Below are positions 1 to 64,000 of a DNA stretch of 64,000 nt, one piece after another (within the stretch, counting starts at the first letter, position 1; every line of letters begins with the position of its first letter). Both the position numbers and the translations under genes were made by a program. A model generated the notes under the pieces. It ran no database searches and had not been told where the DNA came from. It was given only the letters and a program-made list of their open reading frames with translations. This stretch comes from a virus: the IMG/VR virus record IMGVR_UViG_3300049489_001336, positions 1-64,000 of that record; one strand, given 5' to 3'.

Positions 1-140
1 CCGGTTTCACCAACCAAACAAACAGTGAGCTTCCGAGGCATGCGCCACGCAATGCTCAAAATCTTAGGGATTTGACCAATGCCCGTGGGCTGAATCCCTA
101 GTTTTTCCCAAGCCTCGACAATGTCTTTCTTATCTGCCAT
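1..140 (-). CDS. P-loop (AAA-like) ATPase, 5' part, truncated by window edge
   Basis: Manual translation of the minus strand from ATG at 140: MADKKDIVEAWEKLGIQPTGIGQIPKILSIAWRMPRKLTVCLVGETG. A hydrophobic strand followed by GETG is the start of a Walker A loop. Not in the ORF track. Confidence 0.6.
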   Translation of the reverse strand, partial: MADKKDIVEAWEKLGIQPTGIGQIPKILSIAWRMPRKLTVCLVGET

Positions 141-167
141 GATTTCTCACTATATTTTTACAGGTCA

Positions 168-1856
168 ATGAACATAAATAAGCCAGCACACGAGTCCCAA
201 GAATCGCTCTCCATTAGGAGATCTGATTGGGTCACTACTTTATTATACCTCGATGGGAAGTCATTTTCGCTTGACCATTTCCCCTTCTATAAACACATAT
301 ACGACAACATTTATCCAGCGCTCCTGCTAAAGACAGCGCGACAGGTTGCGAAGAGTACGACGCTCGCGAACTTCCTGATTATGGAAGCTTGTAGCACGCC
401 GCACTGGAAAAGCTTTTTTATCGCACCGAGCCAAGAGCAGACAACTAAGTTCTCACAAACGCGTGTCGGTAAAACGATCTTCTACTCCCCAGAAATCCGA
501 AAACGTTGGGTTTCTAAAGAGCTGTCCAGTCGTGTTTATCAGAAAATGTTCACGAACGGTTCTGAACTCGCCTTCTCGTACGCCAGCGACGACCCCGACC
601 GTGCTCGTGGTGTTTCTGCAGATCGCGTCGCGTATGACGAGGTGCAGGACATCCTTTACGACGAAGTTATTCCCGTTGTCAACGAGTGCATGGCGAACTC
701 AGACTTCGCCTATGAGACCTACTGCGGCACGCCCAAGTCAATGGAGAATACCATTGAACAACTTTGGCAGTGGAGCACGCAAACAGAATGGGCCATTAAA
801 TGCACAGGCTGCAACACCTGGCAGTTCTTTGTAGACGACCGTTGCATCGGTAAAAATGGGCCTATTTGCCTAAAATGTGGCAAATACATCAATGTACGCA
901 ATGGTGAATGGGTAGATACGCATATTTACCCAAAGGATCATACTGGTAAACGTATCAAAGGGTTTCACGTCCCGCAGGTCATTCTACCCAAGAACGTACC
1001 TGCGTCGATGCCCTCTGACTACAAAAACCAAGAAGTAGCAATTAACCGTTGGCGACGCATTTTAGAGAAACATGCGGTGTACCCACCCTCGAAATTTAAG
1101 AACGAGGTAATGGGAGTATCCGATGCCATCGGTACACGCCTTATATCAAAAGAAGAATTAGAGTCTTTCTGCAAAGACTACGTAATTACCGAGTATCCGC
1201 CACAAAATATGATGCTCTCGGATATTCGAGGCATTGTCGCAGGCGTGGACTGGTCCGGTGGGGGTATGAACGGTAATTCCCGAACCGTTTTTTGGATTTG
1301 GGGCATTGTCGCAGGAACTACCGAACACAACTTCAAACTCAAAACCCTTTACTTCAAGATTTACCCTGAGACTAACCCGATTTCGGGCGGTGTTATTGAC
1401 CATATTTGCGATATGTGCGAACGCTATAACGTGTCGCTCGTTATTGGCGACGCTGGCGAAGGCGCCTTGGCTAACTCTAATTTGCGCGAACGGTTAGGAC
1501 CACACCGCGCCATGCAAGTGCAGTATCGCGGTGGCGTAGGCGGCGGTGCAGGTGGAGGCAATTCCCGCCCATTTTACTGGAATCGTGTAGACCGCTTTTT
1601 AGCGGACCGCACTACGATGATTGACCACTTCTTTATGTACGTAAAAAGAGGTGGCGTCGTGTACCCCAACGTTCGTCAGATGCAAATTCCTATCAAGGAT
1701 ATGCTGAACGAATTTGAAGAGGTTACAAATCAAGGCCGTAAGGTTTGGCGGCACGCTCCATCACAACCTGATGACTGTTTACATGCGCAGATCTTCGGTT
1801 GGATGGCTGCTAAATTTATGACGCTGGACCCGATGTTTACGTATAACGGAAGCTAA
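168..1856 (+). CDS. terL: Terminase large subunit, GpA-like
   Basis: KTARQVAKST Walker A-like motif, RGVSADRVAYDEVQD Walker B, GTPKS coupling motif, CTGC...CLKC Zn ribbon, GVDW nuclease Asp and C-terminal PDDCLHA nuclease motif. Confidence 0.85.
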   Translation: MNINKPAHESQESLSIRRSDWVTTLLYLDGKSFSLDHFPFYKHIYDNIYPALLLKTARQVAKSTTLANFLIMEACSTPHWKSFFIAPSQEQTTKFSQTRVGKTIFYSPEIRKRWVSKELSSRVYQKMFTNGSELAFSYASDDPDRARGVSADRVAYDEVQDILYDEVIPVVNECMANSDFAYETYCGTPKSMENTIEQLWQWSTQTEWAIKCTGCNTWQFFVDDRCIGKNGPICLKCGKYINVRNGEWVDTHIYPKDHTGKRIKGFHVPQVILPKNVPASMPSDYKNQEVAINRWRRILEKHAVYPPSKFKNEVMGVSDAIGTRLISKEELESFCKDYVITEYPPQNMMLSDIRGIVAGVDWSGGGMNGNSRTVFWIWGIVAGTTEHNFKLKTLYFKIYPETNPISGGVIDHICDMCERYNVSLVIGDAGEGALANSNLRERLGPHRAMQVQYRGGVGGGAGGGNSRPFYWNRVDRFLADRTTMIDHFFMYVKRGGVVYPNVRQMQIPIKDMLNEFEEVTNQGRKVWRHAPSQPDDCLHAQIFGWMAAKFMTLDPMFTYNGS

Positions 1857-1948
1857 AAAAAGAGCAGCACCTTAGTACCGGGACATCCCGTTACCGCAGG
1901 ATGAACACAGAAGAGACTCTAACAAGGAGAAACCTAAGGTGCTGCTCA
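1857..1948 (-). ncRNA. Candidate small RNA / structured terminator between convergent genes
   Basis: Perfect 14-bp inverted repeat (1862-1875 / 1934-1947) enclosing an internal CAUCCUG/CGGGAUG hairpin and an anti-SD tract. On the minus strand it has a U7 tail and an upstream TGTGGTATAAG extended -10. Confidence 0.5.
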
Positions 1949-1950
1949 AT

Positions 1951-1981
1951 TGCTTATACCACAAACAGCTACTTTTTATGC
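1951..1981 (-). promoter_or_regulatory. Promoter, CATAAAAA-N11-TGGTATAA type
   Basis: Extended -10 TGnTATAA. The same bipartite motif recurs at 58402-58430. Confidence 0.5.
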
Positions 1982-2464
1982 AATGTCAACTTCTTGCATT
2001 GCGACTTTGCCTTTGAGCTGAAACTTAAACATGCGGTGCTGAATCACAAAACCCGGATACGCCGCTAGAATAATCTCTGCGGGCGCTTGTTGAGCTCTGA
2101 TGGCGCTTTTCTTAAGTACAAGCGTGCGTCCGACATTGAAAATAGGCATGAAGTTCAAGGTCTTCTGCATTTGAAGAACACAAGGGTCAAGAAGCACCAC
2201 GTCTTCGTCCGTCGTGTTCAAAATAATTCCAAGCATCGGGCCCTCTGCCGTCGAAAGCAGCTCCACACGACAGGGCTTTTGGCACAGGTCATCGTCTTGT
2301 ACGTACACATGGTCTACGTACGAGTTCGTCGTCATGGCGCCTGACAATTCCCACTCGGCTATTTTCCGTGGAGTCTCGTCAGGGACATTCGACGAAAGGA
2401 CTTCTTTAGTTACATATTTCCACTCAGGAATTGTCTCATGCACAACCCCGTACGTGAATTTCAT
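1976..2464 (-). CDS. Hypothetical protein
   Basis: Open frame directly downstream of polA; start taken at MKFTYGVV to avoid overlap with polA. Confidence 0.6.
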   Translation of the reverse strand: MKFTYGVVHETIPEWKYVTKEVLSSNVPDETPRKIAEWELSGAMTTNSYVDHVYVQDDDLCQKPCRVELLSTAEGPMLGIILNTTDEDVVLLDPCVLQMQKTLNFMPIFNVGRTLVLKKSAIRAQQAPAEIILAAYPGFVIQHRMFKFQLKGKVAMQEVDIA

Positions 2465-2489
2465 TCCGTACTTTTCGAAGGACTTTGTT

Positions 2490-5400
2490 TCAAGCCGCCT
2501 CGAAGGCGTGGTTTCTAAGCTCTGTGAGAAGCTCATGTTCTTCAATGACTCCTTCTTCTTCAATTTGAATAGGGTACTTGGCAAGGTACTTCGGAATAGC
2601 CTGACACTCGCCGTAATTAGGCCCTATCTCAATATCAGCTTTGAAGGGTACAGGCAACCAATTGTATTTCTCACTCACGCGCTTTTCTGCATGATATGTG
2701 ACGAAATCTTCTAATTGGTGAACGTATTTCTTCGGAAACTGGAAGACCAAAGAATCGTGCACTGTAAGAAGCATTCTGCCACCAAAGGCATGGCGCAGTG
2801 GCGCATCCATTTCTACAAGCTGCCCAATCACGATATCAGAGCTTGTAGACTGAATCTTGAAATTACGGGCTTGGCGTTTGGCGCGTCCTGCATAGCGAGA
2901 AATACGCGCCAAGGGGAAGCGTCGGCGACGACCAAAGTGAGTTTCGACCCAACCGTTGAGTTCGACTTCGCGCTCAACACGTTGTGCGTACAATTTGATT
3001 TCAGGGAACATCGCGTACAAGAGGTCAATGAGCTCTTGGGCTTTTTCTAGGCTTACGCCGATAGTCTCAGAGATTTTCTCGGGACCCGCGCCGTACAAAA
3101 TACCGAATACGACGCGTTTGATTTGAGAGCGCTCAACGTCGAGCAATGTACGGAAATTCTTGTCTGGGAACATTTCCGCATTATCGCGATTTGCATAGAC
3201 TTCGTAGGGCCGCTGAAAGACCTTGGAAGCGAAGAAGCTATGCATATCCAAGCCGTCATTAAGAGCTTGGATAAGGTCCTTGTCGCGCGCGTACGCAGTG
3301 AAAACACGAACCTCAGCGCCTTTGTAGTCGACGTTGGCAAATACGAAAGAGTCGTCGTCCGGCACGAACAACTTTTTGAGATTCCAACCTGCCAACATTT
3401 TGGGCAAGTTCTGCATGTTCATGTCACTACTGGACAACCGTCCAGTACCGGTCCCGTTTAAGTGAAACTGTGTATGTAAAAACCCATCGCGCTTCGAAAG
3501 GGCGCGTATGTTCACCAAAAACGTATCGCGTGCTTTGAGCGCTTTGCGGTACCGCAACAAACGCTCAACAAAGTAGGCTTCAGGCGCGGGTATTTTTCTG
3601 TCGTTGTCTTCGTACTTAAGGAACTGCCGCAATGTTTTTTCTGCGGTGCTCTCTTTCCCTTTCTTAGTGGTCTCTAAGACAGGGTAAGCGGGCATGCGCG
3701 TACCGTTAGGGTGCGTCCAACCTGTTTGGTAGAGCACCTCAATAATACCAGGGCCTGCCAGCTTTAGGGGTTTACCATTAGCTGTGGCATACCCCGCCAT
3801 CGAATAAAGCTCAGCCTCGGTGCTGTTAATTATCTTTGTCAGCGCGTCTTCGAGCACATCAATGTAGGGTTGATCAACGCGGGTACCGTAGTACTCCATG
3901 CGCCCAAGCACGCGAGAGGCAGGAATCGCATGCGTCTTCATCAAGGGCGCTACGCGTGACGACTCTTGCCTGATGCGCTGCATCTGGTTGCTTGAGAGCT
4001 GTCGCGTAACGTCGCCATCTACAGCGCCGTATACTTGAAGGTCATGGATCGGGATGTTTTCGAAACCCGCATCCTTGCTGATTTCCTGTTCTTTCTTGGA
4101 ACGCGGGTCTTTAGGTTTCTTGGGTTCTTTAACAGCGGTCGGCTTCTCAGGCTTTTTGTCAAACCACTTGGTGGGCTTTTTAGGCTTACCCTTCTTGCCC
4201 TTAGGCCAGTCGGCTACTTCGACTTGCCAAGCCGCTACAAGCCCTTCCAAGTGCGATTTCATGAACTCGTAATCGTCCAAAGCCATTTTATACTTGGCTT
4301 GGGCTTCTTCAAAAACGACGCGTTCACGTTCATAGACCACAAGCTGTTCTTTGTACTCTTTGAGCGCCTGAATAAACTCAGGATGTTCTTCAGCAACGTC
4401 TTTAAGGTCTTCGATTTCTTTTTCAGTTTCGTCAACCTTAGAAACTGTCTCGTCGTCCTGAAGCAAGTCATAGAGTTTGTCCTCGTACCCGCAATATTCC
4501 GGAAGCAGATTTGCGGTGAGAACCTTCAAACCATAATTGCCCTTTTTATCCTCATCAAGGAGGTGCTCTCCTAACAAGGTGTCCCACACCACTTTGTTTA
4601 CTGGGGTTTGATAACGCAGCTCAATGAATTTGAGATCGAATTTTGCGTTATGAAAAATCTTTGGTTTGGTACTCTGAAGAATTAGCTTTATCCACTCCCA
4701 AAGCTCCGGCAAACGGCGGAGGTACTCTTCACCGGCATGAGGGTGGTCATAAAGAATCGTCGTGGCTAGGCCCGTACCCCAGCCAAAACAAAACGCAATA
4801 ATCTTGGAGCTCTCTTTTTCAGGATGCAGCGTATTTGTTTCGGTATCGACCGAAATCATCCAATCATCCGGAGAGAGCTTCGAATCGGGGCCTTTGTACT
4901 CCAAGATCTCTTTGCAAACAGCAATGGCTTCATCAATTGTCTTTGGCGTGCGATAGTTCTTTGCGATGTCGTCGAGTGCTCGTTTTTCTTTGGACTCGAA
5001 AAGAACACGGTCATACACGTTTTTCAGATTGAATTTAAACGTCTCGAAAATCCCCGGCGCAGCCATCAATGCCTTCTCGCTGAAGGTGACAAAGATAGGC
5101 GCTTCGTACTGGATACTGGTCAAAAACTTGTTACGGACTTCACTGTACTGCTGCTTAAAACCAAGCTGTTTAAGCGCAGTAGCGCCCATCGCAACTATGA
5201 CCTTCGGCTGAAGGCTCTTAATAGAACCCGCCAAATAAGGTTGGCACTGCAACATCACTGTTTTAGGTGGTGCAGTGTCGTCAGGGCTTACGCATTGAAC
5301 CGCGTACGTCGTTGCATATCGCAGCGAAGCGTAGCGTTTATCTTTAGTCCGCAACCCCTCAACCGCTGTCTTTAAAATACGACCACTATGCCCCGACAAA

Positions 5401-5546
5401 GGCACATTCGCAGTTGCAGACACGTTGTCTGGCTGTTCCGCGATAAACAGAATGTCTACACTGCCTGGTAATTTATGGAATCCACAGCGAGCATTTTCAA
5501 AACGAGGACAACCATTACACATCTGTCCTTTTGTACCTTCTGACAT
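2490..5546 (-). CDS. polA: Family A DNA polymerase with N-terminal uracil-DNA-glycosylase-like domain and 3'-5' exonuclease
   Basis: N-terminal CxxC...FIAEQP...YAVQC...IVAMGATA (family 4 UDG-like). Exonuclease motifs VDTET, FHNAKFD, YGAVDGD. Polymerase motifs TGRLSS..NMQN, A (DYKGAE), B (RSQIKRVVFGILYG) and C (VHDS). Confidence 0.92.
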   Translation of the reverse strand: MSEGTKGQMCNGCPRFENARCGFHKLPGSVDILFIAEQPDNVSATANVPLSGHSGRILKTAVEGLRTKDKRYASLRYATTYAVQCVSPDDTAPPKTVMLQCQPYLAGSIKSLQPKVIVAMGATALKQLGFKQQYSEVRNKFLTSIQYEAPIFVTFSEKALMAAPGIFETFKFNLKNVYDRVLFESKEKRALDDIAKNYRTPKTIDEAIAVCKEILEYKGPDSKLSPDDWMISVDTETNTLHPEKESSKIIAFCFGWGTGLATTILYDHPHAGEEYLRRLPELWEWIKLILQSTKPKIFHNAKFDLKFIELRYQTPVNKVVWDTLLGEHLLDEDKKGNYGLKVLTANLLPEYCGYEDKLYDLLQDDETVSKVDETEKEIEDLKDVAEEHPEFIQALKEYKEQLVVYERERVVFEEAQAKYKMALDDYEFMKSHLEGLVAAWQVEVADWPKGKKGKPKKPTKWFDKKPEKPTAVKEPKKPKDPRSKKEQEISKDAGFENIPIHDLQVYGAVDGDVTRQLSSNQMQRIRQESSRVAPLMKTHAIPASRVLGRMEYYGTRVDQPYIDVLEDALTKIINSTEAELYSMAGYATANGKPLKLAGPGIIEVLYQTGWTHPNGTRMPAYPVLETTKKGKESTAEKTLRQFLKYEDNDRKIPAPEAYFVERLLRYRKALKARDTFLVNIRALSKRDGFLHTQFHLNGTGTGRLSSSDMNMQNLPKMLAGWNLKKLFVPDDDSFVFANVDYKGAEVRVFTAYARDKDLIQALNDGLDMHSFFASKVFQRPYEVYANRDNAEMFPDKNFRTLLDVERSQIKRVVFGILYGAGPEKISETIGVSLEKAQELIDLLYAMFPEIKLYAQRVEREVELNGWVETHFGRRRRFPLARISRYAGRAKRQARNFKIQSTSSDIVIGQLVEMDAPLRHAFGGRMLLTVHDSLVFQFPKKYVHQLEDFVTYHAEKRVSEKYNWLPVPFKADIEIGPNYGECQAIPKYLAKYPIQIEEEGVIEEHELLTELRNHAFEAA

Positions 5547-5548
5547 GC

Positions 5549-8500
5549 TCAATCTCCAAGAAGGTCAGGTTCTTCATAATACGTGTTATGTTGTTTTTTG
5601 CTAGCAGCGGCTTGTTCAGCAGCCACTTCACGCACAATACTCTCATGAAGCGCAATAAGGTTATTGGTAGTGATGACGGTATAAATATCGTTAGTGCCCG
5701 TCATACCATTCGCGAGTAGGCGTTTAACAATGCCCATTTTCTCAGCACTTTGACGTTCTAAAACCCAGTCAGAAGCCGTCTCAGCTTCGCTCTTTAGCGC
5801 GAATGCCGTTTTATTTCTGTGTACAGAACTACGTAAAAGATTTTGTTTTACTTCTGACCAAGCGATGCCAATGCACTGAGACACTTCGTCATAGTACACG
5901 CCGGTATGCGTCTGATTAATTTTCTCACGTTGCTGGGCCATAAGCAACATGCTCTTAATGTTCGTAACCTGGCTGTCTTCTTCTTTTGACGTAAAGTTGG
6001 TTGTCAAGATCGCATCGATAAGAGCATGTCCCGTAGTGGACTTACTCCGCTCACGTACGGCCTGTGCCCGAGAGTCTCGGTAATCATCGATGAATTTCTG
6101 GCCATTTATGCCAAATACGCTGAGAATTGCCGCCATCGGCATGAGGTTCTCAGTGAAACGATCTACGTTTTGTATGTGCGTTTTACCGCCGGCGTCATTC
6201 TCGCGGCGATTACCGTAGTAATCGTACAAGAACTGGTATTCTTTGGCGATGCGCGGTGCAAGATGCAAGCTGTGTTTTAACACGCTTATGCGCATGTTCT
6301 GAATCGTCTCGACAGGGAATTTATTTGCCAACAAGAGCTTGACGTTTCCGCGACTCGTGTTTTTACGCAAACAAATCGTATTAAAGCGCGACTCATCCAT
6401 GGGATGGTGAATGACGGTACCTGCTGCCGTAATCACTGAGTTGCGAATGACGTAGCGACGGCCCGTGCCGTCTTGCGTACCTTGGTTGAGCTGTGCTGCA
6501 CCTGAAGTCGCCAAAGCGCGACAGCGCGCATAAAAATCTTTCTTTTTATGCGATTCGTTGCTGCCGTCATCGTTGTCATTCATCTCGTCAAGGGCTGCTA
6601 CAAGACGCGAATTCGAGAACATCTGGTAGAACGCCGCTTGCGTAAACGTCTCCATTGCCAACGCATGGTCGCACAGAGAAAAGCGACGCATTTGCGAGTG
6701 GTTCGCCATAATCGACAAAAGCGACGTTTTGCCGGATTCGAATTGCGCGTAAAGGTGCGTGAGCATTCGACGCCCCGGCATTACGTCGAACAAATAATTG
6801 TAGAATACGAGCCCCGCGCAGTACAAAGAGTCTACGTCTTGATTCACGAATTCAAAACCCGTCTGAATCAAGTCATGGACCATTTTAAAGGTTTGCGGCG
6901 CCGTATATGGAGGCGGTGTGAGCAAATCCTTGGGATCCGAAATAAGACGGGTCCAGCCTACGGACATGTCATCGAATAGCGCAATTCGGTGCTCTAAATC
7001 GAAAACAACAGGGCCGTCTGCAGGCCCCCCTAATTCCGCTGCAGCAGACAACCCCGAGTGGTCTGGCTGCCACTCCAAGCGATAAACACGATTGCCATTG
7101 ACGATATATCCGCGTTCGCCGTTCTCGACACCCGCAAGGTGAATTCCTTGGCCCTTTAAGCTAGATACGTCATGCGTGGCTTCAGCAGCAAGGATACGCA
7201 ATGCACGCTGAATATCCTTGTCGATCATTGACTCTACTTTGTCAATGAGCGTGGACGTCACTTCCTCTTCAGCGTCCAAATCAGGGTAATACGCAGGCAG
7301 TCCTACGTCTTTAGCCCAGTAATACTTATTGCCTACTTTGCAGTCAGCGATAAAAGTCGTAATCGCAGTCGGATGGTCGACGCTCAAATGTAAGTAGTGC
7401 TTCTTCTCTTTATTCCAAAGCTTCAAAAGACAATCGCGACTATCCCAAGTGGTGACCTGGTATTTGCCGCGAATCCATTCAGCGATGGCTTCCATAAAGT
7501 CTAGAGCAGAACCTTGAAGACGTGCTGCTCCCTTAACAATTTCCCCAACACTGGCTTTAGGAAAGGCTTTTGAGAATTCTTCTGCAAAGGCTTTGCGCTC
7601 AGCTTCATTTCGAAGCAACGCACCCCACTCTGCGGCAATATCGTTGGTAGCAACGACATTGTCAGAGTGAACACCTTGCATTTGTTCTTTGGCACGCTCA
7701 AAACACCAACGAGGGGCGTATGTGTAGTTACGTGCGTGGCACAGCTCTGTAATAACGGTATCAAACCCGTGCAGCTTTACAGCTTCATCAGGGTCAATTT
7801 TCCCCTCTTTTGTGTTCTTAATTGAGAGGGGCCATTTGAATACCTGAAACGTAATTTTACGCGTTTTAGACAACAAATCTATAGGGTACTTACCCCCTGC
7901 TTCGTCGTCGTCGCCCACAACACGGCATTCAGAAAAACCAAGCTCCGCCATGAAGTCAACGCCGTCATGGCCACTACCGCCCAGCGCGATGATGGGCTCA
8001 ACGATTTGTCCTGAATTTTCCTGTCCCAGAAAGAGCGCGATTTGATCGTGTTCACCCTCAACGGCGATAAATCGCGTGACCTTTTCATGTCCATAAAACG
8101 GGTAAAAAGAAGGCGTTAATACGCCAAAGCCTCCTAAGGCTTCTTCGCTATCAGGACGCACAAAACGAATAAGGTCTTTATCAGGAGATGGAGGCCTAAG
8201 CTTAAACGCGCTGAGCACATCAGGAGAAAGCGCGTACGTATAAACAACACAATCTACGTAAGCATTATTGAGGTAATCTCCCAATAAACGCTTACACCAA
8301 CTGATGTCCTCATCGGTTGCTTTATTTAGCCGTGCAAGGCGTTCAAGCGCAGGTAGCCGTGGTAGGGCTCCGATAGATGGAATTGCCTGGATGTCCTGTA
8401 TTCCACGGATACGTAGCCAATTGACTGTTTTGCGCGCAGTCTCCGGCATTTGATCTGCGACCCAAATCTCGCAGAGGTACGTGTGGAAAATCTCATTCAG

Positions 8501-54094: not shown

Positions 54095-54200
54095 CTCTAA
54101 AGGGCTTTGCTTGTAAATTAGTTATTCACCAATTCACAAGCTTCTATCAAGCACTCTTTTGCAAGAGTTCTCTCATTGCGCTCCAGCCGAGCGCGTGAAT
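54095..54200 (-). ncRNA. Candidate TnpB omegaRNA scaffold (3' end of tnpB and downstream)
   Basis: Three hairpins on the minus strand: GCGCTC/GAGCGC (54178-54194), ACTCTT-GCAA-AAGAGT GNRA hairpin (54153-54168), and an 11-bp stem (54109-54141). Confidence 0.45.
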
Positions 54201-55253
54201 ATTAATCGCAGCATTGAGATCTCTGTGCATGCGTAAGCCACAGAAAGAGCAAATATGCTCTCGCATGTCTAAAGTCTTTTTAGTTACTTTTTGACATTGC
54301 GAACAACGTTGCGTTGTGCCTTTTGGGTCCACTGCAATGGCGTATTTCCCAGCTTCTTCCGCTTTGGAAATTAAACATTGCGTGAATTTGCCCCAAGCGG
54401 CGTCATAGATCGATTTCGAGAAACGGCTTTGAGCCATTCCTTTGATATTCAGTTTCTCGTAAGCGACAAAGTCGTATTTAGTGACTAGCGCCTTTGCTAG
54501 CTTACGGACAAAGTCTAGCCGTTGATTTCTGATTTTTTCGTGTGCTTTAACGACCAAAAGCTTTGCCCGCTTGCGAGAATTGGACCCTTTCTTTTTCCGA
54601 CTGAGCGCTTGCTGTCGTTTGGCAAGGACGTCTTCAGACTTATGGTAGAATCGAGGATTCTCGATTACGTCAGCGTTAGAAAGAGTCGCAAAGTCTGTTA
54701 GACCAACATCAATGCCAATAGAATTCTTGATTTGGCTGACTTTGGTAGGAGCTTCTCCAAGGTCACATACGATAGAGACAGCCCAGCCTTTGGATGTTCG
54801 CATGACTTGTGCGTGCTTCGGGATGCCTTGGAGCGGCCGATACTTTTTGAATTTTACAGAGCCTAGTTTAGGAACAATAATAGTATTACCAGAGATCCTT
54901 GGCACAGAAAATTCAAATGAATCGTAGCGATCAAGGCTGCGAAACCGCGGGTAACCTGGCGTTTGTCCTGCTTTGATTCTTCTAAAGAACGCTTTAAAAG
55001 ACCTATCTAATCTAATCAAAGTCTGTTGTAGAACAACAGCAGATACCTTACGGAAGTCTTCGTTATCGTGCCTAAGTTGGGTGAGCTCTTTGTGTTGATC
55101 GTAAACGTTAATAGCCTTTTTTTGTTTACGATAAGCGTCTCTACGTTGCTCCAACCCTGCGTTGTATAATTGCTGACACGCTTTCAATATAAACATTAGC
55201 TCAATTTCTTGAGCTTGAGTTGGTTGTAGAGGGTATCGGAAAGCGCGTATCAC
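54147..55253 (-). mobile_element. tnpB: IS200/IS605-family TnpB RNA-guided endonuclease, solo (no tnpA)
   Basis: N-terminal RAFRYPLQPT..Q, RuvC residues GIDVG / AYEKL / HRDLNAAINI, Zn finger CSQC...CSFCG. Confidence 0.9.
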
Positions 55254-55311: not shown

Positions 55312-56832
55312 ATGTCGCGAACACATGCCACGCCCTCTGATATGAACGCTCCAAACCGTGGCAATAGACACGGTGGTGTGGGCGATCGTTTTCGTAGAGG
55401 CGAATTTGCTACCGTTATTTCTTATCAGGCTGATACGTATACCGCAAACGTGCGTACTGAGAACGGACGTCCTTTAACGGGCGTTCCGCGGTTACGAACT
55501 TCGCCAGGCGATGTCACTGCGTTAGAGCCTGGAACTGAAGTGCTTATTACGCATGAATACGGCGAACCCCTTATTTTAGGAATTGTGTCCATTCCCGGTA
55601 AAACGGTGAGTGCAGCTCGATTTTCTGCGACGGATGTACAAGGATTTGGTGGCCAAGGGCTAAATAAAAGCCAGACCCTTACCGAGGGTAATTACAGACA
55701 ACCCGCAGAGCCTGACGACATTGCCCCTGGTGATTGGGCTCACGTAGGCTCTGATGGAAACTTGGTCGCCGTATTAGGTGGCGGTGTTAACGTCCTAAAA
55801 TCGAGTGCTTTGGCGCAAATAAGAACGCACCTCATCAATGACCTCGTCGAAGTAATCTCCAGGAACTATCGCCATGTCTCTGATATGGGAGAGTTCACGA
55901 TTCAAAACAATGATGGCCGCATTAATATGCGATTTCGAGGCGGCACCGATCAACGCTCCGAAGCAGGTCCTGACGAAGAAAATTGGACTGTGAAATTCGA
56001 TTTAGGCTCCGAAGGAGATATGCTCAATTTAGAGCTGTGCACACCTCTTGGGCAGACGTTATTTAAATTTCACGTAAATGCCGATGGACAGTGCGAAATC
56101 TACGGGATTAACGGAGTCTCCATTAATTCGGGATCTCAAAGCGGAACTCCCAGCGTTGAACAGAGTACAGGGAGTAAACGCAGAGAAATTGGCGGCGACC
56201 AAACCGTAGTCATCCAAGGAGACAAACGTACTACCGTAGGTGGTAACGAAAGTACCGAAACGTCTGCCGATCATACCGTTAGCGCAGGCAACGATTTGCG
56301 CAACCAAGCATTACGTGACCTAGCCCTTGGCTGCGGACGTAATATGTACGTGCAAGCAACTGGCGATGGTCTTAACGACGCGCTCACGTTTGATATTGAA
56401 CACGGCAGTTGGGTCGTTGATATCGGAGGGCCTACGTCGTTGAACCCATTAAGCGGTTTTTCAATGAAAACCTTTTCTGGAGATATGACTTTTGAGTCTA
56501 CGTTAGGGGGTAATTTCAAGGTTACTACCTTGTTAGGTAACCTTGAAACCTCTACGCTCAAAACTATTATAAATACCAATTTTATGCCTGATTCGGTCAT
56601 CCTAGGCGGGAATGTACTGGCAAGTCATATCGTCAAATATGAACAATTAGAGCAGCATCTTCGTCTTCTTTATCAGCTACTAGATACACATATTCACATC
56701 GAATCAGGAACAAGTGTAGCTGCAGGTATCCCTGTGACAGGAACAAGTGGGCCGCCCGTCCTTCCCATCAGTCCTATCCTTAGTCCCACGCTGCTTACCT
56801 TTAAGAGTTTAACTACAGGGGTGTCACTTTGA
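55312..56832 (+). CDS. Baseplate central spike (gp5/gpV-like)
   Basis: N-terminal OB-fold-like region, beta-helix repeats (IGGDQTVVIQGDKRTTVGGNE...), and C-terminal HIH metal-binding motif. Confidence 0.75.
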   Translation: MSRTHATPSDMNAPNRGNRHGGVGDRFRRGEFATVISYQADTYTANVRTENGRPLTGVPRLRTSPGDVTALEPGTEVLITHEYGEPLILGIVSIPGKTVSAARFSATDVQGFGGQGLNKSQTLTEGNYRQPAEPDDIAPGDWAHVGSDGNLVAVLGGGVNVLKSSALAQIRTHLINDLVEVISRNYRHVSDMGEFTIQNNDGRINMRFRGGTDQRSEAGPDEENWTVKFDLGSEGDMLNLELCTPLGQTLFKFHVNADGQCEIYGINGVSINSGSQSGTPSVEQSTGSKRREIGGDQTVVIQGDKRTTVGGNESTETSADHTVSAGNDLRNQALRDLALGCGRNMYVQATGDGLNDALTFDIEHGSWVVDIGGPTSLNPLSGFSMKTFSGDMTFESTLGGNFKVTTLLGNLETSTLKTIINTNFMPDSVILGGNVLASHIVKYEQLEQHLRLLYQLLDTHIHIESGTSVAAGIPVTGTSGPPVLPISPILSPTLLTFKSLTTGVSL

Positions 56833-57295
56833 ACGTGTCTTCGTTAACAGTGATAACACCTTTGCAGCCCTCAACGGCACAGCGATAGCAAAGCGTCACA
56901 GTATCACGTTCCTCGGTATTGAGTGTGTCCTGTTCTATGCTGTTACCCTGGGAGGTAATCTCTACATTTTGAATTTGCGCCACTAGGGCTAGTCGCTCTT
57001 TTACAAAAAACTGTGCGTTCTTGCATTCGGGACAAATAATAGGTTTTCTACGACCGTTTACTGCGCGTTCCCACAAAACGGCTTTATCTACGTACGCGGT
57101 GGCTTCAGCTTCACGCAATGGAAAATGGTGCTGGCATACTTCACAGCGCATTAATTGCTGAGACGCAAATGTAGAAGGGCTTTCAAGATCTAAAAAAGAA
57201 AATTGTTGAGAATAAGGAACACCTGTTTCCATATAAATAAAACAACCGACGATGCGCACAGCTTGCTCATGACATTTCGGGCAACGTATAGACAT
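56813..57295 (-). CDS. Double Zn-ribbon protein
   Basis: CPKC...CEVC and CPEC...CAVEGC; start taken at MSIRCPKC. Confidence 0.6.
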   Translation of the reverse strand: MSIRCPKCHEQAVRIVGCFIYMETGVPYSQQFSFLDLESPSTFASQQLMRCEVCQHHFPLREAEATAYVDKAVLWERAVNGRRKPIICPECKNAQFFVKERLALVAQIQNVEITSQGNSIEQDTLNTEERDTVTLCYRCAVEGCKGVITVNEDTFKVTPL

Positions 57296-57344
57296 TGTCC
57301 TTACGTACATGATCTTTTGACAAAAAGCAACGTCAGGTGTTTCT

Positions 57345-57725
57345 TCATTTGAAGCAATATTGCTTCTTATATGTTTTTGCAGTCCACAGACGGATCGCTG
57401 TGACTTTCTCAAAGGGCAATTCCTCGACCGTGAAAGGATCCACTTTCGGAGGTGAAAATACGCCCTTTTCAGGGGTATAACGCGGACGCAACGGAGCCAA
57501 CAGCACAACAGAACCGCGAACCCCAACAAGGTATCCGCGTTTCTCTCGATCTCCCAAGGAGAGATATACAAACGCAGGAGCGACGCGCTGAAGCTCCTTG
57601 TAAAGCGCTTCGCGCACTGCATTTGCGTATGCATGTTGCGCATCTACTTCTTTCACGCCTTGGTGTACAACTAGGCCCGTTACGGTAACCAGCGACGCTG
57701 CTGCAGCCACGCCGAGCCACAGCAT
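57345..57725 (-). CDS. Small N-terminally membrane-anchored protein
   Basis: MLWLGVAAAASLVTVTGLVV; start codon directly follows the upstream stop. Confidence 0.6.
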   Translation of the reverse strand: MLWLGVAAAASLVTVTGLVVHQGVKEVDAQHAYANAVREALYKELQRVAPAFVYLSLGDREKRGYLVGVRGSVVLLAPLRPRYTPEKGVFSPPKVDPFTVEELPFEKVTAIRLWTAKTYKKQYCFK

Positions 57726-58109
57726 TTACGCGTCTTCCTGGTCGTTGTGTGCTTGCCTTCGTGCTAGCTCAGGCAAGAACACGTGTTGGATGATGTACTG
57801 GCCGTGGTGCCAGTCTTTAGCAACGCCGTTGTCGATCAGGTGGGCGTATACACCTAATTCGCCGGCGTCCCTGTATAAGCGCTCCAGCTCCTCGAAATCG
57901 AGGGCTATGGCATTCACAGCCGGGTCGGGTTTTGCAGTTTCTGCCGCGTTGACAACGGCCTCTACGACCGTCTTAGCAGCCTTGGCTGCGTCGTCTGCCG
58001 TTGTGTGGGGTCGCGTTAAATCCAATACAATGCGCGCGCACCCATAAATAGCTAACCCTAGAAGAACGGGGTTGGTAGCAGTAGCCCCTATCAACAATAA
58101 AGGGAACAT
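57726..58109 (-). CDS. Small membrane-anchored protein
   Basis: AGGAGG RBS and hydrophobic N-terminus. Confidence 0.7.
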   Translation of the reverse strand: MFPLLLIGATATNPVLLGLAIYGCARIVLDLTRPHTTADDAAKAAKTVVEAVVNAAETAKPDPAVNAIALDFEELERLYRDAGELGVYAHLIDNGVAKDWHHGQYIIQHVFLPELARRQAHNDQEDA

Positions 58110-58120
58110 GAAAACCTCCT

Positions 58121-58145
58121 AAAAAAGGACGCACACGGCGCCCTT
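58121..58145 (-). terminator. Rho-independent terminator after the 57-aa peptide gene
   Basis: AAGGGCGC-CGTGT-GCGTCCTT followed by a T tract on the minus strand. Confidence 0.6.
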
Positions 58146-58173
58146 CTATGACGTTAGACGAGCAGCGCGCCGC

Positions 58174-58347
58174 TCAGCTTTTCGCCGGAGCAGGCTGGGC
58201 CTTCACAGCGTTGTAGACGCGGTTTCCGATGTGGTAGACGCCCACTGCGGCCACCGTGCCGCCGGCGATAACCGCCCACTGCGGCAGCGTCATCGCTGCG
58301 CCCGCTGTCACCAGAACCGGAGCCATTGCTTTGAAAAGATTACCCAT
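58174..58347 (-). CDS. 57-aa hydrophobic membrane peptide
   Basis: AAGGAGA RBS before MGNLFKAMAPVLVTAGAAMTLPQWAVIAGGTVAAVGVY...; has its own promoter and terminator. Confidence 0.7.
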   Translation of the reverse strand: MGNLFKAMAPVLVTAGAAMTLPQWAVIAGGTVAAVGVYHIGNRVYNAVKAQPAPAKS

Positions 58348-58371
58348 GGAAGTTCTCCTTGTTAGAGAGTT

Positions 58372-58431
58372 CAAAAAGTGAGAGGCATTTCTCACTACTA
58401 TATTATACCAAATAATCATTGGTTTTTATGA
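58372..58431 (-). promoter_or_regulatory. CATAAAAA-N12-TGGTATAAT promoter with 5' hairpin and U-tract
   Basis: Consensus extended -10, followed by an AGTGAGA/TCTCACT stem and TTTTT. Confidence 0.6.
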
Positions 58432-58453
58432 CACCCGCTAAGTACAATACGGG

Positions 58454-58618
58454 ATGCCCAAGGCTAAGTGGAACAGACCGCCTGTACTTGATTTGCTCCT
58501 AAAAATGAGGCTTCTAATCGAGCGTAAACGTAAAGAAGACATTGAACAAAAACTGAGCAGTGCGCACCGATTACTCAATTTACAGATTAAGACTTTGAAG
58601 AGGTCCTCTAATGGCTAA
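58454..58618 (+). CDS. Small basic protein (54 aa)
   Basis: MPKAKWNRPPVLDLLLKMRLL...; overlaps the next gene's start. TACAAT lies 5 nt upstream. Not in the ORF track. Confidence 0.5.
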   Translation: MPKAKWNRPPVLDLLLKMRLLIERKRKEDIEQKLSSAHRLLNLQIKTLKRSSNG

Positions 58619-60371
58619 ATGGCATAAATACGACGCAGGGCGCGCAGTACCCGAACCCCTGCGCCAGGCCGCGAGTACCGTAAAAGAAATAAATGATACG
58701 CTTGAGACTGTTTTTGGAACAATAAAAGAAGCGCTGGAAATTGCGCGGCTACTGGCGTCAAACCTAGCAAACAATCCTGTAGAAGCGGCGTTACGAGAAG
58801 CCCTTGAACAGATTCAGCAATACATAGACGATTTGATCGGGGGGACCACTGCCCACGCCATCATGATCCCCATCCAAAAACAGCATTACGGGATCGGGGA
58901 ACCTATCCCCGCAGACGCCACAGATCGTCTATCCCTTACGCCATCTTTCGATCAATTGGCTCAAGACGGAAGTTACTCTCAACGGGTAATTAAGGATATC
59001 ACCCCAGAGACTATTTCTTTTATCAACACCTCCGTCACATCATTAGGAGGTAACCGTGGATATTGGCGCGCTCTCGTGCTCTCTCTTTACGATGAAGGTG
59101 ACTTTGCAAGGCCCGACTTTCCCAACAACTTTGCTGTTACGGGTGCTTGTGTAATTTTTGGCTCTAAACAGTTAGCGGATTTGTATAAAATCATCGCGCT
59201 TCTTACCAAATGGATTCGTCTTGGCTTTAGAGCCGATATGGGAGCGCGCAGTCAGCCTATTCCCAGCACGCTTAAGGCTACGACAATACCCATTCCAACG
59301 GAAGGGCGCATAGGTGTCCAACTTGATTGGACCCCCATCCCACCCGTAATAACCAAAGCACTATTTAGCTCCGAACGGATGTTCGTTCGTGAGATTTTCA
59401 TAGTCAGATCGACAGACCCTCTGTTACGCGAACGTTTTGGTTGGGGTCAAGTTTTCACAGAAGAACCCGAAGCCAGCGGCCTGCCCGTTAGCGCTGACGG
59501 ACGCACCCGCGTAATCGCGCGACTTCCCAATGATGGATTAATCGCACGTTACGTAGATAAAGATACAAGTCTAAAAGTTGACACGTCGTACTACTACGCA
59601 CTAGCGCTGCGTTACGGCATCGGCTCCGACATTAAAACGCTGCTCATCCAACCTATGACGGAGTTTTCCAACGTAGTTTGGGTTCACTACATGGCGCGTC
59701 CAAACACGACACGTTTGAGCGAGCCACCTGACTGGTTTGCTACACCTTCGTTAATTCAGTTATTTCCCATCATCCAAAGCTTTGTAAATATCATAAAACT
59801 CTACGTAAACGGCGCAATAAACCGCACTCTATCTAACAACGGAATTGTTGCGCTCATCACGCAAACAATAAACCAAATTGAATCCCTTATAGCACAAGCC
59901 GCTGAAGTTAAAAAAGACCTCGATGCTTTAGAACAAATTTTACGTTCATTGTCAGGCTTAGATGGGCTAGGTATTTACGCAACGACGTTCGACGTAACCA
60001 CAGGGGGCATGCAAGCGTGGGTGGGTAAGCTTGCTCAACAGTTTTCTGATAGCACGGATACGTCGCGACCTCCGTTTGACCGTGGGGATGAATTCACTGC
60101 GGGATTTGTTATTGTGGCGGGGGCTCCTAGGCTTCCCGATCTCGCTAAAATTAGAGCGTTACTTAAACTTCTGTTCGGCGATGGCAGTGACGAAGAAACT
60201 ATCAAACTGCGAACTGCTTTAGACGTATTTACAGACCCTGAAGGTCCTTCGAAATTTACCTTCGATAATCAAATGCAAGCAACGCGTGTCTCTGATGATG
60301 CCGCCGGAGAAGGTAAACCCGTAGTTTTCGATGAAACCATGACGCCAGCGGAGCGCGACGCAAACTGTTAA
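58611..60371 (+). CDS. Putative baseplate/virion structural protein
   Basis: 586 aa with helical ends and an FnIII-like core (VQLDW...YYYAL); follows the spike region. Confidence 0.5.
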   Translation: MAKWHKYDAGRAVPEPLRQAASTVKEINDTLETVFGTIKEALEIARLLASNLANNPVEAALREALEQIQQYIDDLIGGTTAHAIMIPIQKQHYGIGEPIPADATDRLSLTPSFDQLAQDGSYSQRVIKDITPETISFINTSVTSLGGNRGYWRALVLSLYDEGDFARPDFPNNFAVTGACVIFGSKQLADLYKIIALLTKWIRLGFRADMGARSQPIPSTLKATTIPIPTEGRIGVQLDWTPIPPVITKALFSSERMFVREIFIVRSTDPLLRERFGWGQVFTEEPEASGLPVSADGRTRVIARLPNDGLIARYVDKDTSLKVDTSYYYALALRYGIGSDIKTLLIQPMTEFSNVVWVHYMARPNTTRLSEPPDWFATPSLIQLFPIIQSFVNIIKLYVNGAINRTLSNNGIVALITQTINQIESLIAQAAEVKKDLDALEQILRSLSGLDGLGIYATTFDVTTGGMQAWVGKLAQQFSDSTDTSRPPFDRGDEFTAGFVIVAGAPRLPDLAKIRALLKLLFGDGSDEETIKLRTALDVFTDPEGPSKFTFDNQMQATRVSDDAAGEGKPVVFDETMTPAERDANC

Positions 60372-62466: not shown

Positions 62467-62541
62467 TGGTGGGTTCGACGGGAATTGAACCCGTAATGCT
62501 CCGGTTAAAAGCCGGGTGCCTTACCATTAGGCCACGAACCC
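62467..62541 (-). tRNA. trnK: tRNA-Lys(UUU)
   Basis: GGGTTCG/CGAACCC acceptor stem, D arm GCCT/AGGC, anticodon loop CT-TTT-AA, T arm ACGGG-TTCAATT-CCCGT, encoded ACCA. Confidence 0.95.
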
Positions 62542-63456: not shown

Positions 63457-64000
63457 CATTACGTACTGTTTCCAGTACTAGGTCGACTATCTCATCATCC
63501 TATTTACTAGGATGCAGGGCGCTAAATCCGGTAATTAAGAGGACTCAACCTCTCCGGTAGTCTGTGCACCTTTCCAAGGTGTACCTTGGACTTGGCTCAG
63601 GGTTCTCATAACAAATCGTACTTGCGTGCCCATCTACGTACCGCATTACACGTGACGCCATACTTACGCCCGATAGCAGCCCACGATAATGTTGCTATAT
63701 CCTGCTCTAGCGTTTGCTTAGAAGGTAACGGTACTTTCCGTTTCCCTCCTTTGATTGCATGACAAGCTTTAGAGCAAAAAGTAGTCTGCTTAGGTTTTAA
63801 TACCGCGTCACACACAGCACAGTACGTATTTCGACTTGCGTTAGAATTCCCTGAATTCACCCTGTTCACACCTAGATTTTGCAATCCAGGGGCACCATTC
63901 CTAAGCCAGTTGTGCAACTTTGTGTGTTGCGTCTTCTCAAGAACGAGCAAATTCTTGTGACTGTTATCTGCACGATCACCGTTCAAATGATGAACATCTT
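63457..64000 (-). mobile_element. Group I intron (3' part) interrupting the tRNA
   Basis: CCCTGAGCCAAG (Q-like), P6a TCCAAGG/CCTTGGA, P7 GACTA/TAGTC, P7.1-type stems, P8 CATCCTA/TAGGATG, P9 GTACTG-GAAA-CAGTAC, and terminal TAATG. Confidence 0.85.
63606..63998 (-). CDS. Intron-encoded HNH homing endonuclease (3' part; 5' end beyond window)
   Basis: DVHHLNGDRADNSHKNL...HTKLH HNH motif, CAVC...FCSKAC Zn finger and C-terminal HTH. Confidence 0.85.
   Translation of the reverse strand, partial: DVHHLNGDRADNSHKNLLVLEKTQHTKLHNWLRNGAPGLQNLGVNRVNSGNSNASRNTYCAVCDAVLKPKQTTFCSKACHAIKGGKRKVPLPSKQTLEQDIATLSWAAIGRKYGVTCNAVRRWARKYDLL

What the first reader, a model, noticed from the sequence alone, without database searches (positions are those of the whole stretch)
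1857..1981. Candidate trans-acting sRNA with 15-nt complementarity to the RBS of a membrane-peptide gene 56 kb away
Seen: on the minus strand an extended -10 promoter (TGTGGTATAAG) points at a ~90-nt unit closed by a perfect 14-bp stem and a U7 tail. Its unpaired part contains UUCUCCUUGUUAGAG, the exact reverse complement of CUCUAACAAGGAGAA (plus-strand 58353-58367), which covers the SD of the 57-aa hydrophobic peptide gene at 58174-58347. Both loci are preceded by the same CATAAAAA-N11/12-TGGTATAA motif. The SD-like word is inverted relative to the promoter at locus 1, so simple cassette duplication does not explain it. Rough chance for one 15-mer is about 1e-4 over 128,000 positions, and less impressive because SD words are enriched. 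Inference: a phage-encoded, type I toxin-antitoxin-like or timing circuit (sRNA plus small membrane peptide) with unlinked components.
Basis: partly seen in the sequence, partly recalled or inferred. Interest (0 to 1): 0.75.

Follow-up and report, generated by a model that had tools for sequence, protein, structure and literature searches.

The report
Phage small RNA against cassette leaders
Between the terminase and DNA-polymerase operons of an uncultured 190-kb phage lies a conserved small-RNA gene whose exposed stretch matches the ribosome-binding sites of about nine phage genes that share one promoter-leader cassette. The reported match to a membrane-peptide gene is therefore real but not specific, and it gives no support for a toxin-antitoxin pair.

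Summary
The sequence features are all there: the promoter-like motif, the 14-bp closing stem, the U7 tail and the exact 15-nt complementarity to the leader of the 57-aa peptide gene. That gene and its leader word lie on the minus strand, not the plus strand.

The match is not unique. The same stretch of the RNA matches another gene's ribosome-binding site (RBS) over 15 nt, two over 13 nt and three over 11 nt. All carry the RBS word TAACAAGGAGA, most within a repeated terminator-promoter-RBS cassette of PeSL type. The peptide gene ranks fifth or sixth among 262 predicted targets.

The element itself looks like a real minus-strand RNA gene:
- Seven sequence types in related phages keep it at the same convergent junction.
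- A GGTAnAAG motif always sits 5-6 nt before a closing stem that covaries strongly.
- Most types end in a U-rich tail, and the interior is 86-193 nt and variable.
- No Rfam family matches.

The peptide was not found in any relative checked. One that keeps the RNA has a different first gene at that site. Nothing supports a type I toxin-antitoxin reading.

Best reading (about 35%): a phage sRNA that pairs with the shared cassette leader and damps translation of that gene set. Rivals are an elaborate terminator or an RNA with another role. Everything is in silico, and covariation between seed and targets across genomes could not be tested.

The parts
1973..1980 (-). Upstream box (CATAAAAA) of the promoter-like motif. 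It contains the stop codon of the 202-aa gene (1976-2584).
   Evidence: The box recurs in 12 two-box sites of the genome, all on the minus strand, against 0.75 expected. It is not kept in the most distant RNA types L057 and L061.
1953..1961 (-). Extended -10-like box TGGTATAAG. This is the most conserved part of the unit.
   Evidence: GGTA[T/C/A]AAG lies 5-6 nt before the closing stem in all seven sequence types. The same box class precedes cassette genes in this genome and in relative G002. Promoter function is inferred, not shown.
1934..1947 (-). 5' arm of the closing stem. The inferred 5' end of the RNA is at 1947.
   Evidence: Two other units of this promoter class (58410 and 87146) also start a hairpin about 6 nt after the box.
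1917..1934 (-). Exposed C/U-rich word (RNA nt 14-31), antisense to the cassette RBS word; the candidate seed.
   Evidence: 15-nt matches to 58353-58367 and to genome 112264-112278, plus 13- and 11-nt matches to five more RBSs. Unpaired probability 0.71.
1884..1903 (-). Inner 7-bp hairpin of the RNA.
   Evidence: Fold. It is not conserved in sequence among the types.
1862..1875 (-). 3' arm of the closing stem.
   Evidence: Covariation with the 5' arm is seen across the seven types.
1855..1861 (-). U7 tail followed by AGC, the phage's usual terminator tail. It overlaps the terminase stop codon (1854-1856, + strand) by 2 nt.
   Evidence: TTTTTAGC occurs 37 times against 5.8 expected, and by my reading of the list many sites sit behind hairpins and ahead of the next promoter.
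58402..58430 (-). Same-class promoter-like motif in front of the peptide operon.
58372..58395 (-). 6-bp hairpin plus U5 lying between that promoter and the RBS of the peptide gene (a 5' stabiliser or an attenuator).
   Evidence: Read; not analysed further.
58353..58367 (-). Leader and SD word of the peptide gene, complementary to RNA nt 17-31.
58174..58347 (-). 57-aa hydrophobic peptide gene, first of a minus-strand operon of membrane-anchored ORFans (57726-58109, 57345-57725).
   Evidence: No Pfam, PHROG or Atlas relative.

Best explanation
The intergenic element is a self-contained small-RNA gene on the minus strand. It has a phage-class promoter, a transcript of about 86-93 nt whose first and last 14 nt pair, and the phage's usual terminator tail. 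The transcript exposes a C/U-rich word antisense to the leader and Shine-Dalgarno word shared by a family of terminator-promoter-RBS cassettes. At least nine or ten genes carry this word, mostly small ORFans at 104-113 kb, plus the 57-aa peptide operon at 58 kb.

Inferred mechanism: the RNA is made from the same promoter class as its targets, accumulates, pairs with their very short leaders across the SD, and lowers their translation. This would be an RNA-based shut-off or damping of one temporal gene class. The peptide gene would be one target among many, not a partner.

Shown: the anatomy, conservation of the unit, stem covariation, the strand bias and the complementarities.

Inferred: transcription, the 5' end, pairing in vivo and repression.
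For: 1. Conservation. Seven sequence types lie at the same terminase / 187-202-aa gene junction in related phages (terminase 77-84% identical). Each has the GGTAnAAG box 5-6 nt before a closing stem, and most have a U-rich tail.
2. Covariation. The closing stem is 11-12 of 12 paired in six of seven types, with 2-5 different pair types at positions 3-12.
3. Strand. The minus-sense fold is more stable in six of nine sequences, most clearly L021 (-54.5 against -38.9 kcal/mol). The box and the U-tail also point the same way.
4. Promoter class. Twelve two-box sites, all on the minus strand, against 0.75 expected. Ten are followed by an RBS and a gene. The class is also present in the more distant complete relative G002.
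5. Size. The unit is far larger than this phage's ordinary terminators, which by my reading have short stems and small loops. It is the only such unit in the genome.
6. Targets. In duplex ranking of 262 translation start regions, eight cassette-type leaders plus the peptide gene fill nine of the top ten places. With folding costs included, only 8 of 262 bind better than -3 kcal/mol; one is a spurious ORF antisense to the RNA itself, and six of the other seven carry the cassette RBS word.
7. Constraint. Within the L002-type group the 5' 50 nt, including the C/U-rich loop, has 3 variable columns against 20 in the middle 75 nt.
Against: - There is no expression data of any kind.
- The interior of the RNA is not alignable between types.
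- Merely carrying an anti-SD-like word is not unusual: dinucleotide shuffles do as well (p 0.04-0.77).
- Two types (L002-type, L061) lack a U-tail.
- Covariation of seed and cassette leader across genomes could not be tested. The relatives' contigs do not reach the cassette region, and no relatives of the cassette were found.
- In G006 the best own-genome matches are only SD-core length.
- The box ends in G where sigma-70 -10 hexamers have T, so the polymerase or sigma factor that would read it is unknown.
- Several related phages do without the element altogether.
Confidence: 0.35

Rival explanations
1. It is only an elaborate minus-strand terminator or insulator. It closes the DNA-polymerase / 202-aa operon and shields the convergent terminase gene. 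The RBS-like word has no trans function.
For: The closing stem plus U7-AGC is the phage's usual terminator tail. Only the stem is conserved and the interior drifts and changes size. A generic anti-SD content is not significant. The element is dispensable in several relatives.
Against: A conserved promoter-like box sits 5-6 nt before the stem in all seven types, which would make a futile transcript. By my reading, this phage's ordinary terminators are short hairpins, whereas this one encloses 58-170 structured nt (z down to -9). Two types have no U-tail yet keep the stem and the box. The 13-15-nt identity to the cassette RBS word is very unlikely by chance; my estimate is about 0.02 expected 15-mers for the RNA's interior against the whole genome, from the counts.
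Confidence: 0.25
2. It is a real structured RNA with a different job. Examples: a protein-bound RNA whose paired ends are what is recognised, or an antisense or stabilising element acting on the 3' end of the convergent terminase transcript.
For: Conservation is concentrated in the paired 5' and 3' ends with an invariant GA start, as in RNAs recognised by their terminal helix. Earlier notes of this scan report Ro60 with Y-like RNAs and a retron-type enzyme with detached RNAs in this genome. The plus-strand terminase transcript has no terminator before the element, so it would be fully complementary to the RNA.
Against: No Rfam family matches, including Y-like RNAs, even at permissive thresholds. 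I did not see the motifs that those earlier notes report for the Y-like and retron-like units in this RNA (reading). This reading gives no reason for the exact match to the cassette RBS word.
Confidence: 0.2
3. One reading: a dedicated two-part circuit, like a type I toxin-antitoxin pair, in which this RNA specifically represses the 57-aa membrane peptide.
For: Exact 15-nt complementarity over the SD of the peptide gene. Both units carry the same promoter class. The peptide is small and hydrophobic.
Against: The match is shared with at least seven other RBSs, and the peptide ranks fifth or sixth as a target. The two loci are 56 kb apart and share only 15 nt. The peptide heads a multi-gene operon. 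The peptide was not found in the relatives, including ones that keep the RNA (control 89). There is no sign of toxicity and no family assignment.
Confidence: 0.05
4. The functional strand is the plus strand: a leftover or working RBS for a tiny ORF, or part of the terminase 3' UTR.
For: On the plus strand the word reads as a strong SD followed 9 nt later by GTG (25-codon ORF 1939-2016). An SD-like word is kept at the same place in most relatives.
Against: From the sequences, the relatives have no start codon at a usable distance and the downstream reading frame is not conserved. G-U pairs and fold energies favour the minus strand. The promoter box and the U-tail face the minus strand.
Confidence: 0.05

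Closest known systems
c4 antisense RNA of phages P1/P7 (and sar RNA of P22), which block the ribosome-binding region of the ant mRNA (c4 as summarised in PMC12197685; sar from my own knowledge)
   Same: A small structured phage-encoded RNA that presents short complementary stretches in unpaired regions, pairs around an RBS of a phage gene and blocks translation.
   Different: c4 and sar act on one neighbouring operon of a temperate phage. Here the candidate targets are nine or more dispersed genes that share a cassette leader, 56-110 kb away, in a large phage showing no sign of lysogeny in what I examined. There is no sequence or Rfam relationship.
T4 RegB endoribonuclease and RegA translational repressor (my own knowledge)
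   Same: The proposed logic: shutting off a class of early mRNAs by attacking or occupying their Shine-Dalgarno region.
   Different: RegB and RegA are proteins. Here an RNA would do the job. That the cassette genes are early genes is itself an inference.
PeSL composite terminator/early-promoter cassettes of T4-like phages (Comeau, Arbiol & Krisch 2014, PMC4122927)
   Same: Repeated hairpin-terminator plus promoter units flank small variable genes. The RNA unit uses the same promoter class and the same terminator tail as these cassettes.
   Different: The motif sequences differ. The cassette here also fixes the RBS word and carries a cis anti-SD stretch in the promoter spacer. PeSLs are described as recombination joints, not as targets of an RNA.
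Type I toxin-antitoxin systems (hok/sok, tisB/istR-1; my own knowledge)
   Same: A small hydrophobic peptide gene whose RBS region is complementary to a small RNA.
   Different: See the membership test: linkage, length and specificity of the complementarity, and co-conservation are not met.
Bacterial sRNAs with C/U-rich seeds that pair with SD sequences of many mRNAs (RsaE/RoxS type; my own knowledge)
   Same: An unpaired C/U-rich seed, a Rho-independent terminator and multiple RBS targets.
   Different: These are chromosomal, and their seed motifs and structures are conserved. Here the seed differs between relatives, and the whole transcript is enclosed by one terminal stem.

Membership tests
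Type I toxin-antitoxin system | The antitoxin RNA is encoded overlapping or next to the toxin gene. | tested here: not met
   The two loci are 56 kb apart.
Type I toxin-antitoxin system | The RNA has extended complementarity that is specific to its own toxin mRNA. | tested here: not met
   The match is 15 nt only, and is equal or near-equal to at least seven other RBSs. The peptide ranks fifth or sixth of 262.
Type I toxin-antitoxin system | The RNA and the peptide are conserved together. | tested here: not met
   The peptide was not found in eight relatives' records (control). G006 keeps the RNA but has a different first gene at the homologous site. Most of these records are fragments.
Type I toxin-antitoxin system | The peptide is toxic when expressed. 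| not testable with these tools
   Only hydrophobicity is seen; no family match.
Trans-acting base-pairing sRNA | Own promoter and a defined 5' end. | tested here: inconclusive
   A conserved box lies 5-6 nt before the stem in seven types and belongs to a 12-member motif class. There is no transcript data.
Trans-acting base-pairing sRNA | Rho-independent terminator at the 3' end. | tested here: met
   14-bp stem plus U7 in the window. U-rich tails are present in five of seven types and absent in two.
Trans-acting base-pairing sRNA | An accessible seed complementary to target RBS regions. | tested here: met
   Unpaired probability 0.71; matches of 11-15 nt at RBSs; favourable net binding for cassette leaders.
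Trans-acting base-pairing sRNA | Seed and targets co-vary in relatives. | tested here: inconclusive
   The relatives' contigs do not cover the cassette region. In G001, G003 and G006 only SD-core-length matches were found.
Intrinsic (Rho-independent) terminator, bidirectional | A stem followed by a U-run on both strands. | tested here: not met
   The U7 is on the minus strand only. The plus strand continues with mixed sequence in the window and in the relatives.
PeSL-type composite terminator-promoter cassette | A repeated hairpin terminator directly followed by a conserved promoter in front of small variable genes. | tested here: met
   The RNA unit carries the cassette's promoter class and terminator tail, but holds an RNA in place of an ORF (the only such unit).
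Any Rfam family (including Y-like RNA, pRNA, 6S) | A score at or near the family's gathering threshold. | tested here: not met
   No match in the element at the gathering threshold. Only chance-level miRNA and sbrA hits at E 0.3-1.
Retron-like or Y-like RNA units of this same genome (earlier notes) | The shared internal motifs reported for those units. | tested here: not met
   I did not see those motifs when reading the RNA against the earlier notes and one array. This was a visual check only.

The most novel reading that the evidence does not exclude
One small phage RNA, made from the same promoter class as its targets, silences a whole family of promoter-leader cassette genes by pairing with the leader they share. 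That would be a built-in, RNA-based delayed shut-off of a temporal gene class, and the cassettes' own cis anti-SD stretch shows that this SD is meant to be masked. The 264-nt ORF-less unit at genome 106228-106491, which starts with another C/U-rich stretch, would be a second such RNA.
Probability: 0.25. Interest if true: 0.7.

Novelty: new member of a known kind. Interest (0 to 1): 0.45.

Why it matters
Almost all known phage sRNAs come from temperate coliphages and act on one neighbouring operon or on host genes. If this reading holds, a conserved sRNA family in large uncultured phages would act on the shared leader of a modular gene-cassette family. That would show that cassette architecture (PeSL-type joints) can be regulated as a block by a single RNA, and it would be an RNA counterpart to T4 RegA/RegB. 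Even without a function, the family is a clean, testable ncRNA candidate: fixed position, promoter box, covarying terminal stem. For the scan, the lesson is that a long sRNA-to-RBS match has to be checked against repeated RBS words before a specific partner is named.

Tried and rejected
- Rfam at gathering and at permissive thresholds, on the window and on five relatives: nothing.
- Nucleotide search of the phage collection with window 1-5000: no match. By protein, the terminase is at most 30% identical to named phages.
- Peptide homologue search in eight relatives' records: none, with a working positive control.
- Pfam, PHROGs and Atlas for the peptide, its operon and eight cassette genes: nothing except a CxxCxxCC domain in one 212-aa protein.
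- Search for the relatives' own copies of their RNA's word or of the promoter class elsewhere in their contigs: only the element itself.
- Search of IMG/VR for the cassette sequence: two unrelated contigs. Search for relatives of the cassette-driven 309-aa protein: none.
- Generic test of whether the RNAs carry an unusually good anti-SD: not significant.
- Small ORFs on either strand of the element (30 aa minus strand; 25 and 55 aa plus strand): rejected. Frames read are not conserved between types.
- Retron-like or Y-like membership: rejected on motifs.
It was replaced by scans of 262 predicted start regions.
- Not done: no covariance model was built, because the interiors of the types cannot be aligned. 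The large protein-database searches were not spent on the peptide.

Full report
**Setting.** The window is the first 64 kb of a 189,879-bp virus record with 48.7% G+C. The finding lies in the 119-nt spacer between two convergent genes. One is the large terminase subunit (168-1856, +; 24-30% identical to named phage terminases). The other is a 202-aa ORF (1976-2584, -) that follows a family-A DNA polymerase gene (2490-5552, -).

**Check of the observation.**
- The 15-mer is present exactly twice in the window and in the genome: 1917-1931 on the plus strand and 58353-58367 on the minus strand.
- The peptide gene (58174-58347) is on the minus strand.
- The minus strand of 1855-1947 folds into a perfect 14-bp closing stem around a partly open interior with one 7-bp hairpin, followed by U7. 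MFE is -37.5 kcal/mol and z is about -5.
- The two-box motif in front of both loci is confirmed and is absent from shuffles.

**Is the match more than chance, and is it specific?**
- Exact inverted 15-mer pairs are not rare. Composition-shuffled genomes give 14-25 per 190 kb, about two per 64 kb. The window has three, two of them palindromes.
- More important, the match is not unique. The same stretch of locus 1 matches 112264-112278 (-) over 15 nt, 104417 and 112665 over 13 nt, and 106178, 111049 and 67404 over 11 nt. Every one lies at the RBS of a minus-strand gene.
- Aligning these sites shows a repeated cassette: a hairpin terminator with the tail TTTTTAGC, then CATAAA, a 14-nt spacer, TGGTATAGG, five bases, then the RBS word TAACAAGGAGA and a start codon.
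- The two-box motif has 12 sites in the genome, all on the minus strand, against 0.75 in simulated sequence. Locus 1 and locus 2 are two of them.
- TTTTTAGC occurs 37 times against 5.8 expected. By my reading of that list, many sites sit behind hairpins and ahead of the next promoter.
- This is the layout described for PeSL terminator/early-promoter cassettes of T4-like phages (PMC4122927).
- The cassette genes are small ORFans with no Pfam or PHROG family, except one CxxCxxCC protein.
The extra flanking bases that make it 15 nt at two different targets are what a family of similar leaders would give.

**Is the element itself real?** Related phages were fetched through the terminase (77-84% identity).
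- The terminase / 187-202-aa gene / polymerase layout was checked directly in L002, L004 and L008 and is conserved.
- In seven sequence types the spacer holds an element with the same plan on the minus strand. The types are the window, L002-L007, L019/L031, L021, L052, L057 and L061.
- The plan is a GGTA[T/C/A]AAG box, 5-6 nt, and then a stem formed by the first and last 11-14 nt of an 86-193-nt segment. A U-rich tail follows in five of the seven types.
- Stem sequences differ between types but stay paired: 11-12 of 12 in six types, with 2-5 pair types at positions 3-12. The first two pairs are invariant.
- Fold energies favour the minus sense in six of nine sequences, strongly so in L021 (-54.5 against -38.9 kcal/mol, z -9.2 against -4.3).
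- The plus strand has no U-run after the stem, so the element is not a bidirectional terminator.
- By my reading, ordinary terminators in this genome are short hairpins. This is the only unit where a promoter box is followed by a long closing stem and a tail.
- Two other units of the promoter class (58410, 87146) also begin a hairpin about 6 nt after the box. That fits a start site there.
- No Rfam family matches in the window or in the relatives.
- The element is missing where the two genes abut (L054, L055, L059, L060, L026). It is replaced by unrelated sequence in L027/L028 and G002.
- I conclude that a minus-strand RNA gene is likely (about 0.65-0.7), and that it is an accessory feature of this phage group.

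**What might it do?**
- In six of the seven types, by my reading of the folds, a C/U-rich stretch lies in the 5' third of the RNA and is mostly unpaired there.
- In the L002-type group the first 50 nt, including that loop, are much less variable than the middle (3 against 20 variable columns).
- However, a generic anti-SD content is no better than in dinucleotide shuffles, so this feature alone proves little.
- The strong statement holds only for this genome. Against 262 predicted start regions, eight cassette-type leaders and the peptide gene fill nine of the ten best duplexes, with the peptide fifth.
- With intramolecular folding costs counted, only 8 of 262 regions bind better than -3 kcal/mol. 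One of those is a spurious ORF antisense to the RNA itself. Six of the other seven carry the cassette RBS word, and the peptide is sixth.
- Similarity to the cassettes is confined to the short word, which argues against a recent inverted duplication.
- The cassettes carry their own anti-SD stretch in the promoter spacer. In two homologous sites it changes together with the SD (genome 67.4 kb against G006 66.3 kb). Masking of this SD therefore seems to matter to the phage.
- These points make a trans-acting anti-leader RNA the best single mechanism. I give it only about 0.35.

**Why the toxin-antitoxin reading fails.**
- The loci are unlinked and the complementarity is short and shared.
- The peptide heads an operon of three or more membrane-anchored ORFans and has no family.
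- The peptide was not found in eight relatives' records (control).
- G006 keeps the RNA. At the site homologous to locus 2 it has a similar -10 box, but a different first gene (170 aa). From the sequence, that gene's leader matches G006's own RNA over only 7-8 nt.
- G002 has neither the module nor this RNA.

**Limits.** There is no expression evidence, and the host is unknown. The polymerase or sigma factor that would read the box is unknown; the box ends in G where sigma-70 hexamers have T. The relatives' contigs do not reach the region homologous to 100-113 kb, so the key test, covariation of seed and cassette leader, remains open. Earlier notes of this scan on the same genome (Ro60 with Y-like RNAs, retron-like RNA arrays) were used as leads. 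I did not see their reported motifs in this RNA.

**Verdict.** I class it as a new member of a known kind, a phage-encoded RBS-pairing sRNA candidate, of moderate interest.

Noticed in passing
genome 103,800-112,750, minus strand (outside the window; locus L064): An array of at least ten PeSL-like units (hairpin terminator with TTTTTAGC tail, CATAAA-N14-TGGTATAGG, fixed RBS word) in front of small ORFans. A second box variant, TGGTAAAAG, occurs at 103864, 104154, 111098 and 67.4 kb.
   Followed up: partly
genome 104441-112710 cassette spacers; 67405 against G006:66302: The spacer between the two promoter boxes carries an anti-SD stretch that can pair with the cassette's own SD. The homologous sites in two genomes differ on both sides yet stay complementary (6 bp against 10 bp). 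This would mask the SD in read-through transcripts only.
   Followed up: partly
genome 106228-106491, minus strand (L064:6228-6491): A 264-nt unit between a cassette-class promoter (106497-106525) and a terminator, with no ORF longer than a few codons. It is moderately structured (z -2.3) and starts with a C/U-rich stretch. It is a possible second non-coding RNA of the same kind.
   Followed up: partly
window 58372-58395 (-): A 6-bp hairpin followed by U5 lies between the promoter box and the RBS of the peptide gene. It could be a 5' stabiliser or a small attenuator.
   Followed up: no
window 54147-55253 (-): A TnpB/IS605 OrfB-type gene (PF01385, PF07282; PHROG transposase, E 1e-101) sits among the tail and baseplate genes.
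   Followed up: no
window 63462-63912 (-) and 62470-62541 (-): A group I intron (Rfam RF00028, 76 bits) and a tRNA gene.
   Followed up: no
L030:3163-3384 (G002) and L027/L028 downstream of the terminase: At the same convergent junction, more distant relatives carry unrelated structured spacers of about 220-300 nt. G002's has a TGTATAAAT box and folds to -64 kcal/mol. The junction seems to be a general home for variable RNA-like elements.
   Followed up: partly
window 56813-58610 against L009 (G002) and L032 (G006): The minus-strand membrane-protein module between the gp5-like spike gene (55312-56832) and the 586-aa gene (58611-60371) is absent in G002. In G006 different membrane-anchored genes take its place, so the slot is variable.
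   Followed up: partly
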